Origin: a virus | Lineage: Duplodnaviria; Caudoviricetes | IMG/VR virus record: IMGVR_UViG_3300047275_000136 | Span: 1-39,764 of that record | DNA: 39,764 bases | Strand: one strand, 5' to 3' | In this document: in pieces, positions 14,879-25,782 of the stretch | Layout of the letters: each line of letters starts with the position of its first letter | Numbering within the stretch: position 1 is the first letter of the stretch | Position numbers and translations under genes: made by a program | Notes under the pieces: generated by a model | The model's database searches: none | What the model was told of the DNA's origin: nothing | Seen by the model: only the letters and a program-made list of their open reading frames with translations

Positions 14879-14907
14879 ATCCTACATATTTGATTTCGTG
14901 CCGTCAA
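14879..14907 (-). promoter_or_regulatory. Early sigma70-type promoter
   Basis: TTGACG-17 nt-TAGGAT. Confidence 0.75.
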
Positions 14908-14998
14908 CCTATTTCGGCCTTGTTTTGCTTCGAATTGACGAACGGTAGACAATCCAGGATGAGCGGTAGTGTTGTTCGAACACAACAGTTCAGTCTAT

Positions 14999-15014
14999 TG
15001 TTTCACGTGGAACC
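14999..15014. promoter_or_regulatory. parS-like ParB binding site
   Basis: TGTTTCACGTGGAACC versus the chromosomal parS consensus TGTTTCACGTG(A/G)AACA; one terminal mismatch. Confidence 0.7.
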
Positions 15015-15115
15015 AGTGCAGATCGGTGCAAGCTTTCTAGGCTTTGAAGTCTGTTCAGGTATCTTTAGAGGGTGCTACGCTGATACATCCTCCCTACTGT
15101 GCAGACTGTGCAGTC

Positions 15116-15135
15116 TACTGTACAGATATACAGTC
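15116..15135. promoter_or_regulatory. LexA SOS box (beta/gamma-proteobacterial type)
   Basis: TACTGTACAGATATACAGTC contains CTGT-N8-ACAG with consensus-like flanks; CAGATATACAGT is duplicated in tandem. Confidence 0.7.
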
Positions 15136-15177
15136 AGATATACAGTGCAGCCTTAATAGTAATGCATTATCATTAGC

Positions 15178-15194
15178 ATTTCACATTATGAAAT
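15178..15194. promoter_or_regulatory. Palindromic operator, IclR-family-like
   Basis: ATTTCA-CATTA-TGAAAT; the family assignment is tentative. Confidence 0.45.
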
Positions 15195-15197
15195 CTT

Positions 15198-15218
15198 AAT
15201 TGACTATGATTCTCAATT
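15198..15218. promoter_or_regulatory. Fur-box-like site
   Basis: AATTGACTATGATTCTCAATT; the minus strand reads TGAGAAT-C-ATAGTCA (7-1-7). A second Fur-like near-palindrome lies at 15154-15175. Confidence 0.45.
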
Positions 15219-15349
15219 GTACATTGCAGTGCAGCATAGGGGGAGGGGTCTGGTTAGTTATGGAAATGTTGTGGTGCTACCTAGCCTTAAAAAAAAGCTA
15301 AAATGGAAGTCTCTAAAGCCTAAGTAAACTATCTAATAAAAGGTAATAG

Positions 15350-15362
15350 AATCAATAGCTTA
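15350..15362 (+). promoter_or_regulatory. IHF consensus site
   Basis: AATCAATAGCTTA matches WATCAANNNNTTR. Confidence 0.5.
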
Positions 15363-15470: not shown

Positions 15471-15511
15471 AGTCAAGGGTCTTTACAGCAATATCATTTG
15501 TATGCTACAAT
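15471..15511 (+). promoter_or_regulatory. Late promoter 1 (upstream of terS)
   Basis: AGTCAAGnnTCTTTACAGCAATAT motif; TTTACA-18 nt-TACAAT with extended -10 TGn. Confidence 0.65.
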
Positions 15512-15678: not shown

Positions 15679-16173
15679 ATGTCAGAAATTAAAATTACTT
15701 CTCCTAATGAGGATTGTTCGCTACCTTCATCAGTCAGCCAGGATGTCTTGGCAGTCAATGAAGAGAAGAGTGTGCCGACAAAAAAGAGGAAAAGAGGTCG
15801 TCCTAAGAAGGAAGAAGTACAAAAGTATATAAAAAGAGAGAAGAGAGGAAGACCACCAGGAGAAGCAGCAAGGATTAAAGAGTTCACTGCTTCGCTGCTG
15901 TTAACGCATTCGAATGCGATTATCAGAAAGATAGTACATAAAGCATTAGATGATAATGATAAGGATCAGATTGCAGCACTAAAGATGTGTATGGATCGGA
16001 TGCTTCCAGTATCTTATTTTGAGGATAAAGGACAATCATCAGGTGCTAAAGCAATCACCATCAACATCACTGGTGTACAACAAGAGTCTCCAGTGGAGAT
16101 GATTCAGCATGAACCAGTCGATGTAGAGACTACGTTGATCGATTACGAGGAAGAAGATGGATCTACAAGTTAA
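15679..16173 (+). CDS. terS: Terminase small subunit (putative)
   Basis: Immediately upstream of terL; RGRP motifs, AALKMCMDRMLP and ITINITG patterns. Confidence 0.7.
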   Translation: MSEIKITSPNEDCSLPSSVSQDVLAVNEEKSVPTKKRKRGRPKKEEVQKYIKREKRGRPPGEAARIKEFTASLLLTHSNAIIRKIVHKALDDNDKDQIAALKMCMDRMLPVSYFEDKGQSSGAKAITINITGVQQESPVEMIQHEPVDVETTLIDYEEEDGSTS

Positions 16174-17410
16174 GCTTCTTCCCTGGCAACAAGAGGTATT
16201 TAAAGACCCTGCAAGGTTTAAGATCATCGCTGCAGGGAGACGTACAGGTAAATCTAGGTTAGCTGCTTGGACATTGATTATTGAAGGACTACAGACTGAA
16301 AAGGGTCATGTCTGGTATGTAGCCCCTACGCAGGGACAAGCTAGAGATATTATGTGGTCTACGCTACTGGAGCTAGGCCATTCAGTTATTAAAGGTAGTC
16401 ATGTGAATAACATGCAGATTACCTTAGTCAATGGTGCAATGATATCTCTGAAGGGTGCTGATAGACCAGAGACTATGCGTGGTGTTAGTTTGAAGTATTT
16501 AGTGATGGATGAGTACGCAGACATGAAACCACAGGTGTTCGAACAAATCCTTAGGCCTGCTTTAGCGGATCAGAAGGGTAGAGCTATGTTCATTGGAACA
16601 CCAATGGGTAGAAATCACTTCTATGAGTTGTACAAGTTAGGTGCTACCAATAAGGATAAAGATTACAAGTCATGGCACTTCACTAGCTTTGATAATCCGT
16701 TGTTAGATCCAGCAGAGATTGAAGCTGCTAGAGGTTCGATGTCTAGCTTTGCTTTTAGACAAGAGTTTATGGCTTCGTTTGAAGCATCACAGTCTGAGAT
16801 ATTTAAGGAAGAGTGGATTAAAGTAACTGACGAGGAACCAGATGAAGGTAGCTACTTTATGGCGGTGGACTTGTGTGGCTTTAGCGATTCTTCGCAGACG
16901 AATAAGACGAAGAATACGAAGCTGGATGAAACAGCGATAGCCATTGTTAAGGTTAACACACGAGGTTGGTGGGTTGCTGACATTCTACACGGTAGGTGGG
17001 ATGTCCGAGAAACAGCAGTAAGGATTCTCAAAGCAGCTAAAGATTATCGTGTTACGTGTGTTGGTATAGAGAAAGGTGCACTGAAGAATGCAGTGATGCC
17101 TTATATGCACGATCTAATGCGTAGGAATGGTTTTTATCCTCGTATTGAAGAACTAACGCATGGTAATAAGAAGAAAACAGATAGGATTGTTTGGTCACTA
17201 CAGGGTCGCTTTGAGCATGGAAGGATTGTTTTAAACGAAGGTGATTGGAATAATCTGTTCATTGATCAGCTTATGCAATTCCCTGACAGTAAAACTCATG
17301 ATGATTTGATTGATGCGTTAAGCTACATTGATCAGATACAAACTGCAAACTGGAATCAGAATTTAGATGAAGAAGAGTTTGAAGTCTTAGACCACGTAGC
17401 AGGCTATTAG
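16157..17410 (+). CDS. terL: Terminase large subunit
   Basis: AGRRTGKS Walker A, LVMDE Walker B, GTP, nuclease AVD...DET...HDDLIDA. Confidence 0.95.
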   Translation: MDLQVKLLPWQQEVFKDPARFKIIAAGRRTGKSRLAAWTLIIEGLQTEKGHVWYVAPTQGQARDIMWSTLLELGHSVIKGSHVNNMQITLVNGAMISLKGADRPETMRGVSLKYLVMDEYADMKPQVFEQILRPALADQKGRAMFIGTPMGRNHFYELYKLGATNKDKDYKSWHFTSFDNPLLDPAEIEAARGSMSSFAFRQEFMASFEASQSEIFKEEWIKVTDEEPDEGSYFMAVDLCGFSDSSQTNKTKNTKLDETAIAIVKVNTRGWWVADILHGRWDVRETAVRILKAAKDYRVTCVGIEKGALKNAVMPYMHDLMRRNGFYPRIEELTHGNKKKTDRIVWSLQGRFEHGRIVLNEGDWNNLFIDQLMQFPDSKTHDDLIDALSYIDQIQTANWNQNLDEEEFEVLDHVAGY

Positions 17411-24899: not shown

Positions 24900-25220
24900 A
24901 TGGCACACTTTGCCAAGATTGAGAATAACGTAGTTACTCAGGTTATCGTTGTAGACAACAAGGATACCGCTGATGCTAGTGGTGTTGAGAAAGAGCATAT
25001 CGGTGCTGCTTTCTGTGAACGTCTACTAGGAGGTACTTGGAAGCAAACCAGCTATAACGGTAACTTCCGTAAGAACTATGCTGGTATTGGTTATAGCTTT
25101 GATGAGGCTAGGAATGCCTTTATCCCACCAAAGCCTACCGAAGATGCTGTATTAGATGAAGATACTTGCCAGTGGATTGTTAGCATGGCTGCAGACTCTA
25201 TAGGTGCTGATTCTGTCTAA
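24900..25220 (+). CDS. Conserved phage tail-associated hypothetical protein
   Basis: MAHFAKI...WKQTSYN.NFRKNYAGIGY...AFIPPKP family pattern. Confidence 0.8.
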   Translation: MAHFAKIENNVVTQVIVVDNKDTADASGVEKEHIGAAFCERLLGGTWKQTSYNGNFRKNYAGIGYSFDEARNAFIPPKPTEDAVLDEDTCQWIVSMAADSIGADSV

Positions 25221-25782
25221 GGAAATCAGCAATCCTTTGATGTTCGTCAGCAGTACCATCATTCTTAATACGATTAGCTCTCCATGACATGATCATGACA
25301 TTGCCTTTGATGTAGCCTTTAGTTGTATCTAAACGATCAAAGCTAACAGAGTTCTCTTGTCTTTCTGAAGCATAGTAATCAAGTTCAATACCTAGTATAG
25401 GACAATGTGTAGGGAAGAAAAGATCATCAAAGGTAATGTCCCATTCATGTTTGTAGTTAGATGCTTTCTTACGTCTGAACTTCTCTCGTTGTACTTGATA
25501 AGAATCTAGTTCACGTACTGAAGCCTCCTCAGGGTAATGACCCCACTTCTTCTTGTAATTAGTACGTAAGAGCTGTCTACGCTGTGTCCGAGGACGTTCT
25601 TCATCAGTGATACGACCATCTTTGACTAGTTTATCAATCAATTGATGGATACGTTGTCTGCTGACATTACCAAGCTCTTTACGTATCTGTTCAGTGGTCT
25701 TACCTATTTGAACTAAGTTTTGTACTAAGTCTAGTCTTTCTTTAGCAGTTAAGTCTGTTTTAGCAAAGTGATGTAAAGGCAT
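25198..25782 (-). CDS. HNH-type endonuclease with N-terminal HTH (free-standing homing endonuclease-like)
   Basis: HTH-like TTEQIRKELGNVSRQRIHQ; CPILG, SFDRLD..KGYIKGNV...ANRIK. Confidence 0.75.
   Translation of the reverse strand: MPLHHFAKTDLTAKERLDLVQNLVQIGKTTEQIRKELGNVSRQRIHQLIDKLVKDGRITDEERPRTQRRQLLRTNYKKKWGHYPEEASVRELDSYQVQREKFRRKKASNYKHEWDITFDDLFFPTHCPILGIELDYYASERQENSVSFDRLDTTKGYIKGNVMIMSWRANRIKNDGTADEHQRIADFLRQNQHL

What the first reader, a model, noticed from the sequence alone, without database searches (positions are those of the whole stretch)
14999..15362. Array of different host-regulator binding sites packed at the probable genome end
Seen, within ~360 non-coding bp: parS-like TGTTTCACGTGGAACC (14999), SOS box (15116), Fur-like sites (15154, 15198), ATTTCA-N5-TGAAAT (15178), ATTGCAGTGCAGCAT (15223), a G-tract (15239) and an IHF consensus (15350). 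The sites from 15154 to 15237 are almost edge to edge. None overlaps the early promoter (14879-14907) or late promoter (15482-15511), and I recognise none of the cognate regulators in the phage. Inference: this is not ordinary promoter control but a landing pad for host DNA-binding proteins. Possible roles are shielding or ratcheting the entering DNA end, titrating host repressors (SOS, iron, carbon storage) as copy number rises, or sensing host state. I know of no named system like this, and it is my best candidate for an undescribed one.
Basis: partly seen in the sequence, partly recalled or inferred. Interest (0 to 1): 0.85.

Follow-up and report, generated by a model that had tools for sequence, protein, structure and literature searches.

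The report
Swappable host-protein docks on phage ends
This gene-free stretch is likely the short repeated end of an uncultured lake phage's DNA, filled with look-alike docking sites for bacterial proteins; near-identical relatives carry entirely different sets of such sites in the same slot, so the phage likely coats the DNA end that enters the cell first with host proteins (binding untested).

Summary
The parS, LexA, IclR-type and one Fur-like site are real: each occurs once in the genome, within 250 bp, beyond shuffled expectation. Two copies of a 16-bp element (15071, 15273) bracket a ~200-bp slot. It is likely the direct terminal repeat (DTR): its C-tract lies 27 bp from the predicted end, as in T7, T3, phiKMV and gh-1 (26-27). 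Among 64 relatives the slot holds at least seven mutually exclusive cassette types (DnaA arrays, Fur, NrdR-like pairs, unassigned repeats), nearly unlinked to the flanks. parS lies outside the slot, on the predicted leading end. The IHF-like site and G-tract are more likely packaging signals; the PhaR call is untested. Selected isolates carry DnaA, NrdR-like or Fur/LexA sites in their terminal repeats, but 9 unselected reference phages show no such array. Best reading: a cap of host proteins that anchors or shields the first-entering end. Rivals: titration decoy, host-state sensing. No binding or terminus was measured; the host is unknown. The closest paper is an in-silico T5 DnaA-box model. 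This scan noted similar arrays on other phages before.

The parts
14879..14907 (-). Promoter-like site for the early arm (host sigma-70 type); outside the predicted DTR
   Evidence: 9 of 12; genes to the left are on the - strand
14970..14987 (.). Conserved 18-bp palindrome of unknown ligand, just outside parS
   Evidence: sequence; palindrome+parS pattern found in 56 viral and 41 metagenome stretches
14999..15014 (.). parS-like site (14 of 16 to consensus); on the predicted leading end only, outside the DTR
   Evidence: 49 of 64 relatives found via terS/terL; outside the boundary pair in 57 of 57
15071..15086 (+). Inner copy of the 16-bp boundary element (predicted right-end cut site)
   Evidence: in this genome alone the copy scores 4.8, below the shuffle maximum 9.4, though its first 8 bases equal the outer copy
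15073..15274 (-). Predicted direct terminal repeat, 202 bp = the swappable cassette; predicted left end at 15274
   Evidence: inferred, not mapped by reads
15116..15135 (.). LexA (SOS) box of the beta/gamma-proteobacterial type
   Evidence: 26 of 64 relatives
15154..15176 (.). Weak Fur-like element
   Evidence: failed both Fur thresholds
15178..15194 (.). IclR-family palindrome, exact WTT-11-AAW consensus
   Evidence: also in unrelated cassette contexts (L069-type, L169)
15201..15215 (.). Fur-like box (deletion-fused form in this genome)
15223..15237 (.). TGC-rich palindrome next to the G-tract; PhaR assignment untested
   Evidence: shared by the Fur, NrdR and forward-DnaA alleles
15239..15248 (.). 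G-tract (C-tract on the - strand, 27 bp from the predicted end); matches the KOPS octamer here but not in all family members
15273..15296 (+). Outer copy of the boundary element plus A-tract (predicted left-end cut and packaging signal)
   Evidence: best-scoring site in the genome for the matrix (24.2 vs next 12.3; the window was in the training set); contig ends pile up here
15350..15362 (+). IHF-like site in the invariant terminase-side flank; likely packaging or late-promoter architecture
   Evidence: 63 of 64 relatives; 5 matches in the genome
15482..15511 (+). Promoter-like site for the late arm
   Evidence: 10 of 12, extended -10
15679..17410 (+). Probable small terminase (by position; no family hit) and large terminase

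Best explanation
The stretch is likely the ~200-bp direct terminal repeat of a lytic T7-like podophage, and it likely works as a landing pad on which host DNA-binding proteins cap the DNA end that enters first. Shown: the sites are there beyond chance; a duplicated 16-bp element brackets the slot; close relatives exchange whole non-homologous cassettes in it, almost independently of both flanks. Inferred: terminase cuts at the two boundary copies, giving an end at 15274. That end is packaged last and ejected first, by analogy with T7, whose early genes also follow that end. About 370 bp must enter before the first promoter-like site is exposed. Host proteins already present (LexA, Fur, IclR-type here; DnaA, NrdR or others in sister alleles) would bind this DNA with no phage gene expression, holding it in the cytoplasm and masking the free end until host RNA polymerase engages. 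Which protein binds would matter little, and this would explain the interchangeability. Speculative: a protein-bound end would also stop ParB clamps loaded at the neighbouring parS from sliding off the linear DNA. Alleles would be reshuffled when concatemers form through the short conserved DTR edges.
For: Boundary element: a matrix trained on outer copies finds an inner copy above all 20 shuffles in 68 of 100 clade loci and 17 of 23 distant-family loci, median spacing 195 and 151 bp. In those 68 loci the variable motifs fall between the copies (LexA 17/17, DnaA 51/51, IclR 8/8, Fur 25/26, NrdR 2/2) and parS never does (0/57). End geometry: C-tract at 27 here; 26 in T7, T3 and phiKMV; 27 in gh-1. 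4 of 22 contigs that stop 10-501 bp right of the G-tract stop within 4 bp of this point (P~0.009). Swapping: 248 of 311 pairs with terS DNA >=95% identical differ in cassette type (0.80 against 0.85 for all pairs); within each of two lineages, cassette type carries about shuffled-level information on either flank. Family-wide: 24 of 80 viral loci with triple DnaA boxes hold a homologue of this terL, 23 of them at 57-82% identity, with the array upstream of it. Triple DnaA arrays occur in about 2000 viral stretches (estimate) against 25 for the reversed 9-mer. L619 and L623 (terL 66-70%) show LexA, parS-like and Fur sites before the same G-tract. Isolates: phiEap-1 has 5 DnaA boxes in its end repeat; PcCB251 has an NrdR-like pair 32 bp apart in its annotated 192-bp repeat, the three-turn spacing of PMC9110341; the T5-like MM-1 LTR has Fur, LexA and DnaA sites. 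The LexA box lies 178-212 bp from the early -35 element with no fixed spacing (25 loci).
Against: No binding, terminus or phenotype was measured and the host is unknown. The contig-end pile-up has an assembly explanation: L008 and L017 begin about 126-127 bp left of the same point (a k=127 branch signature) and a polymorphism follows it. The window's own inner boundary copy is not significant alone. None of 9 reference phages chosen without regard to motifs (T7, T3, SP6, phiKMV, gh-1, LUZ24, phiEco32, N4, ICBM1) has an array of the motif panel at its left end. Only 5 of 21 unselected distant-family slots hit the panel, all DnaA (controls 1 of 425); the other 16 hold unassigned repeats or nothing evident. 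15 of 64 relatives lack parS. RecBCD can evict bound proteins (recalled), which weakens pure shielding. The named regulators (DnaA, NrdR, LexA, Fur) are ones whose titration would help a phage, which fits the decoy rival.
Confidence: 0.45

Rival explanations
1. Operator decoy: as genomes multiply, the sites titrate host regulators (DnaA to stall host replication, NrdR to raise dNTP supply, LexA to induce SOS, Fur to raise iron uptake). The DTR is simply a gene-free, duplicated place to carry them.
For: The identifiable ligands control DNA metabolism and metal supply; the phage has its own B12 ribonucleotide reductase and a 2OG-Fe(II) oxygenase; arrays of 3-5 DnaA or 2-3 Fur boxes; the paired NrdR-like geometry is kept.
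Against: Benefits should add up and could sit anywhere, yet cassettes are mutually exclusive, confined between the boundary copies and unlinked to the flanks. One to five sites per genome do little against abundant regulators until late in infection (recalled copy numbers).
Confidence: 0.25
2. Host-state sensor: host regulators bound near the divergent promoters time early or late transcription, like CtrA-based lytic deferment.
For: The slot lies between the two divergent promoter-like sites; parS keeps a 62-92 bp distance from the early -35 (45 loci); precedent in PMC9437464 (abstract).
Against: No site overlaps a promoter; distances vary without fixed phasing; nearly identical phages would be wired to unrelated signals.
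Confidence: 0.13
3. Replication origin or packaging architecture that borrows host bending and initiator proteins.
For: Cumulative GC skew has its minimum at 14.5-15 kb; DnaA arrays and an IHF-like site resemble oriC parts.
Against: Only 14 of 64 alleles are DnaA arrays; the phage encodes its own primase-helicase and polymerase; the skew switch is also explained by the divergent gene arms.
Confidence: 0.09
4. Neutral turnover of short repeats in a recombination-prone DTR, with chance likeness to host motifs.
For: The slot is rich in slippage-type repeats; the window has a private 12-bp duplication and a deletion; several cassette types match nothing known.
Against: Shuffle tests; about 80-fold excess of DnaA arrays over the reversed control; the same motif classes recur in unrelated cassette sequences and unrelated phages.
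Confidence: 0.08

Closest known systems
T5 injection-stop region, Repeat Region 3 of the long terminal repeat (Davison, bioRxiv 10.1101/866236; cited in PMC13250531)
   Same: Non-coding terminal-repeat DNA with host-protein boxes, proposed to act during DNA entry. The T5-like MM-1 LTR also shows Fur and LexA sites; the preprint's text has no occurrence of Fur, LexA or SOS.
   Different: T5: 10-kb repeat, boxes about 9.5 kb from the end, conserved order, two-step injection with A1/A2, in-silico only. Here: about 200-bp repeat, sites at the very end, and whole cassettes for different proteins replace each other.
Short DTRs of T7-like podoviruses (T7, T3, gh-1, phiKMV; cobavirus ICBM1)
   Same: 150-400 bp repeat, C-tract about 26 bp from the left end, host promoters and early genes next.
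   Different: These reference repeats show no array of the motif panel; this phage has no RNA polymerase family hit, and its terL and capsid have no isolate relative above 45% identity.
CtrA-site clusters and lytic deferment in alphaproteobacterial phages (PMC9437464)
   Same: Dense host-regulator sites in an intergenic region of lytic phages.
   Different: One regulator, sites in promoters, regulation shown experimentally. Here many regulators, interchangeable, not overlapping promoters.
datA and multicopy operator titration such as the Fur titration assay (recalled)
   Same: DNA sites that could soak up a host regulator.
   Different: Chromosomal or plasmid tools, not a variable phage-end cassette.

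Membership tests
Short direct terminal repeat (T7-type ends) | Identical 100-400 bp repeat at both virion DNA ends, shown by read ends or doubled coverage | not testable with these tools
   Only assembled contigs were served for the 22 runs listed
Short direct terminal repeat (T7-type ends) | Non-coding, between packaging genes and early promoters, fixed boundaries | tested here: met
   overlapping ORFs have no Pfam hit; no Rfam hit
Short direct terminal repeat (T7-type ends) | C-tract about 26 bp from the left end | tested here: met
   27 bp from the predicted end; 26-27 in T7, T3, phiKMV, gh-1
Short direct terminal repeat (T7-type ends) | Contig or read ends pile up at the terminus | tested here: inconclusive
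   4 of 22 ends within 4 bp, P~0.009, but a k=127 branch explains it too
T5 injection stop signal | About 10-kb LTR with pre-early A1/A2 genes and two-step transfer | tested here: not met
   No A1/A2-type family among 53 ORFs; the repeat is predicted at about 200 bp
T5 injection stop signal | Eight DnaA boxes in conserved inverted-repeat order | tested here: not met
   No DnaA box in the window's slot; DnaA arrays in 14 of 64 relatives, in either orientation
CtrA-type lytic deferment | Host regulator sites located in phage promoters | tested here: not met
CtrA-type lytic deferment | Regulator binding changes phage transcription | not testable with these tools
   needs experiment
parS centromere | Match to the 16-bp ParB consensus | tested here: met
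   14 of 16 on the + strand against PMC7383237
parS centromere | Cognate parAB in cis or ParB binding | tested here: inconclusive
   No ParA/ParB family hit in the phage ORFs scanned; host ParB binding untested
IclR-family operator | WTT-11-AAW consensus | tested here: met
   17 of 17
KOPS (FtsK loading site) | Octamer conserved as such across the family | tested here: inconclusive
   Kept in the clade, but many distant members have other G-runs at the same place
PhaR operator | Match to a curated PhaR matrix | not tested
   no matrix at hand
Zobellviridae (cobavirus-like) | Two-arm 40-kb genome, class II RNR, T7-type polymerase, no RNA polymerase | tested here: met
   the defining list is recalled
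Zobellviridae (cobavirus-like) | Terminase and capsid related to isolates of the family | tested here: not met
   No such isolate among the 40 best terL rows listed or the 21 capsid hits

The most novel reading that the evidence does not exclude
Many lytic phages use their terminal repeat as a programmable, exchangeable cap of host proteins: a gene-independent device that acts in the first seconds of infection to anchor, pull or hide the entering end. Alleles for unrelated host proteins are kept in balance by host range or competition. It would give one explanation for T5's unexplained stop region and for short DTRs, and the unassigned cassettes would point to abundant host DNA-binding proteins not yet characterised.
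Probability: 0.3. Interest if true: 0.9.

Novelty: new variant of a known kind. Interest (0 to 1): 0.72.

Why it matters
Terminal repeats are usually treated as passive replication and packaging devices. Here the repeat appears to be a polymorphic locus whose alleles are rows of binding sites for different host proteins. If binding matters, it offers a direct test of two old questions: how the first few hundred bases of phage DNA are held and protected before transcription starts, and what host factor acts at the T5 injection stop. Cultured T7-like phages with DnaA or NrdR-like sites in their ends make this testable now, although this phage has no known host.

Tried and rejected
No isolate matches the region by blastn (one search gave only chance-level hits). 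Cassettes are not captured host promoters as far as tested: no meaningful hit in plasmids or E. coli genomes. Termini could not be mapped, as only contigs were served. An RNA or hairpin role was rejected: no Rfam hit, fold z = -0.47. Overlapping ORFs have no family hit. parS in viral contigs at large is not tied to this system: 1 of 80 loci near such a terL, and no strong co-enrichment of other motifs. The TTGTC-N8, GTATAC, CTTAC and AACGG cassette motifs stayed unassigned; the GntR review passages did not match. The first boundary matrix was out of register and was redone. The filter dropped the AACGG-type alleles, so its counts (75 loci, partly selected through parS) are not used as frequencies. 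A per-column conservation test of parS against its flanks was not completed, so purifying selection on parS rests only on presence counts. Literature: searches returned nothing; searches returned no paper on swappable host-site cassettes in terminal repeats, judged from listings and the passages read. Subscription papers and bioRxiv supplements were not visible.

Full report
Context. The window is a whole 39.8-kb virus record. It has two gene arms that diverge from a non-coding gap at about 14.85-15.68 kb. The left arm encodes replication functions (primase-helicase, T7-type polymerase, exonuclease, thymidylate synthase, B12 ribonucleotide reductase); the right arm encodes terminase, portal, capsid and tail. 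No RNA polymerase, integrase or repressor family was hit among 53 ORFs, and no LexA domain was found. No isolate is close. Runs that hold it are freshwater metagenomes. The host is unknown; the LexA box type points to beta- or gamma-proteobacteria (inference).

Observation. The named strings are all present. parS, the LexA box, the IclR-type palindrome, the Fur-like site at 15201 and the G-tract octamer each occur once in the genome and all within 250 bp. Shuffle probabilities are below 1/3000, 0.001, below 1/3000, 0.007 and 0.01. The parS consensus was checked in PMC7383237 (passages) and the IclR consensus in PMC8222616 (passages); the other consensus strings are recalled. The Fur-like site at 15154 failed both thresholds, the IHF match is one of five in the genome, and PhaR was not tested.

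Relatives. terS and terL scans gave 154 loci; 64 distinct ones (the window included) with terS at least 78% identical had enough upstream DNA. parS is in 49 of 64 and the LexA box in 26 of 64 (tallied); the IHF-like site is in 63 of 64. The 200 bp left of the G-tract fall into exclusive types: CTTAC repeats 18, Fur 11, DnaA arrays 9 plus 5 in opposite orientations, AACGG repeats 7, TTGTC-N8 palindromes 7, paired NrdR-like boxes 5, other 2. A finer typing of 87 loci gives nine types. Different types align little better than shuffled DNA (0.56 against 0.51). Of 311 pairs with terS DNA at least 95% identical, 248 differ in type (0.80; all pairs 0.85), and 13 pairs with terS below 85% share a cassette at 90% or more. 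Across the clade two deep lineages give some linkage, but within each lineage cassette type carries about shuffled-level information on either flank, even next to the G-tract. The slot is exchanged as a unit. The NrdR-like boxes are 32 bp apart, the three-turn spacing described in PMC9110341 (passages).

What the slot is. A 16-bp element lies 32-38 bp right of the G-tract in nearly all loci and recurs left of the cassette. A matrix trained on outer copies finds an inner copy above all 20 shuffles in 68 of 100 clade loci and 17 of 23 distant loci, with median spacing 195 and 151 bp. In the window the copies are at 15071 and 15273; the inner one is not significant alone. In the 68 passing loci nearly every variable motif lies between the copies and parS never does. 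Four of 22 contigs that end right of the G-tract end within 4 bp of 15274 (P about 0.009). Two other contigs start 126-127 bp left of that point and a polymorphism follows it, so an assembly branch is a fair alternative. Independent of assembly, an end at 15274 puts the C-tract at position 27 of the minus strand; it is at 26 in T7, T3 and phiKMV and 27 in gh-1. I therefore read 15073-15274 as a 202-bp DTR (about 0.8), with parS and the early promoter-like site following on the leading end, and the A-tract and IHF-like site on the packaging side.

How general. Triple DnaA boxes occur in about 2000 viral stretches (estimate from a partial scan, proviral host DNA not removed) against 25 for the reversed 9-mer. 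Of 80 such loci with flanks, 24 hold a homologue of this terL. Of 80 loci with paired Fur boxes, 15 hold a terL homologue, most of them distant; LexA boxes are about 23-fold and DnaA boxes about 6-fold denser near the pair than farther away. In 21 distant-family slots not chosen for motifs, 5 have DnaA arrays (control windows 1 of 425); the rest show other repeats or nothing evident. Isolates retrieved by cassette similarity carry such sites in their ends: phiEap-1, A7, ZK1 and SallyK (DnaA), PcCB251 (NrdR-like pair in its 192-bp repeat), Muenster and PBES 02 (Fur), and T5-like MM-1 (Fur, LexA, DnaA). Nine reference phages chosen without regard to motifs show no such array. The feature is widespread but not universal.

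Mechanism. Shown: non-random host-type sites, their confinement to a bounded slot, and free exchange of unrelated cassettes. Inferred: the slot is the DTR, it enters first, and host proteins bind it. I favour a generic protein cap (0.45) because unrelated ligands replace one another at the one place that is a free DNA end and lies ahead of the first promoter. Titration (0.25) fits the identity of the ligands but not their exclusivity or position. Sensing (0.13) lacks promoter overlap or fixed spacing. An origin role (0.09) fits only the DnaA alleles. Neutral repeat turnover (0.08) is disfavoured by the controls.

Known and new. The nearest paper is Davison's preprint on eight DnaA boxes in the T5 injection-stop region (10.1101/866236; part 1 of 6 and passages read). 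It is in silico, and its text has no Fur, LexA or SOS. PMC13250531 repeats the idea (passages). PMC9437464 shows CtrA control of lytic phage promoters (abstract). PMC11512268 and PMC3556154 (passages) added nothing. Ten searches (two were for motif consensus) found no description of interchangeable host-site cassettes forming a short DTR; closed-access papers were not searched. Earlier notes of this scan report similar arrays in T5-like and other phages, one of them a swappable cassette in another freshwater phage; these were read after my analysis and are unchecked notes. Verdict: a real feature, a new variant of host-factor sites in phage terminal repeats, function untested; interest 0.72.

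Noticed in passing
window 15123-15146 and 15198-15215: A 12-bp tandem duplication after the LexA box and a deletion fusing two elements; not seen in the relatives printed, and contigs of runs X3 and X6 align here with 12-14 gaps. May be a private allele or an assembly slip.
   Followed up: partly
L668:110-125 (LUZ24 terminal repeat); L001, L011, L050 slot: The unassigned AACGG-type motif that fills one cassette type also occurs once in the DTR of Pseudomonas phage LUZ24; ligand unknown.
   Followed up: no
L052, L083 slot; L663 (E. coli nrdA promoter): The CTTAC-type cassette shares a 12-bp word with the E. coli nrdA upstream region at a probable NrdR box; may be chance or a degenerate NrdR array.
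   Followed up: no
L064 slot-left; L052: A SlmA-site-like core replaces or adjoins parS in two alleles (consensus recalled).
   Followed up: no
L001, L050 boundary elements: Inner and outer boundary copies deviate from the consensus in the same way, as expected if both are read by the same terminase.
   Followed up: partly
L520:500-1150 (T5-like MM-1 LTR): Near-perfect LexA box and several Fur boxes beside the known DnaA boxes of the injection-stop region.
   Followed up: partly
clade right flank, G-tract +43 to +80: A unit of about 37 bp holding the A-tract is present in one or two copies among relatives.
   Followed up: no
L090, L110, L114, L115, L135, L147 slot: Distant family members fill the slot with other repeats (an 8-bp GC-rich unit; alternating purine-pyrimidine runs) that match nothing in my panel.
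   Followed up: no
MZ089777.1 and other Microviridae rows: DnaA-box arrays also occur in non-coding DNA of several small ssDNA phage records.
   Followed up: no
window 25198-25782: A minus-strand endonuclease gene (HNH/endo VII-like) sits inside the late arm.
   Followed up: no
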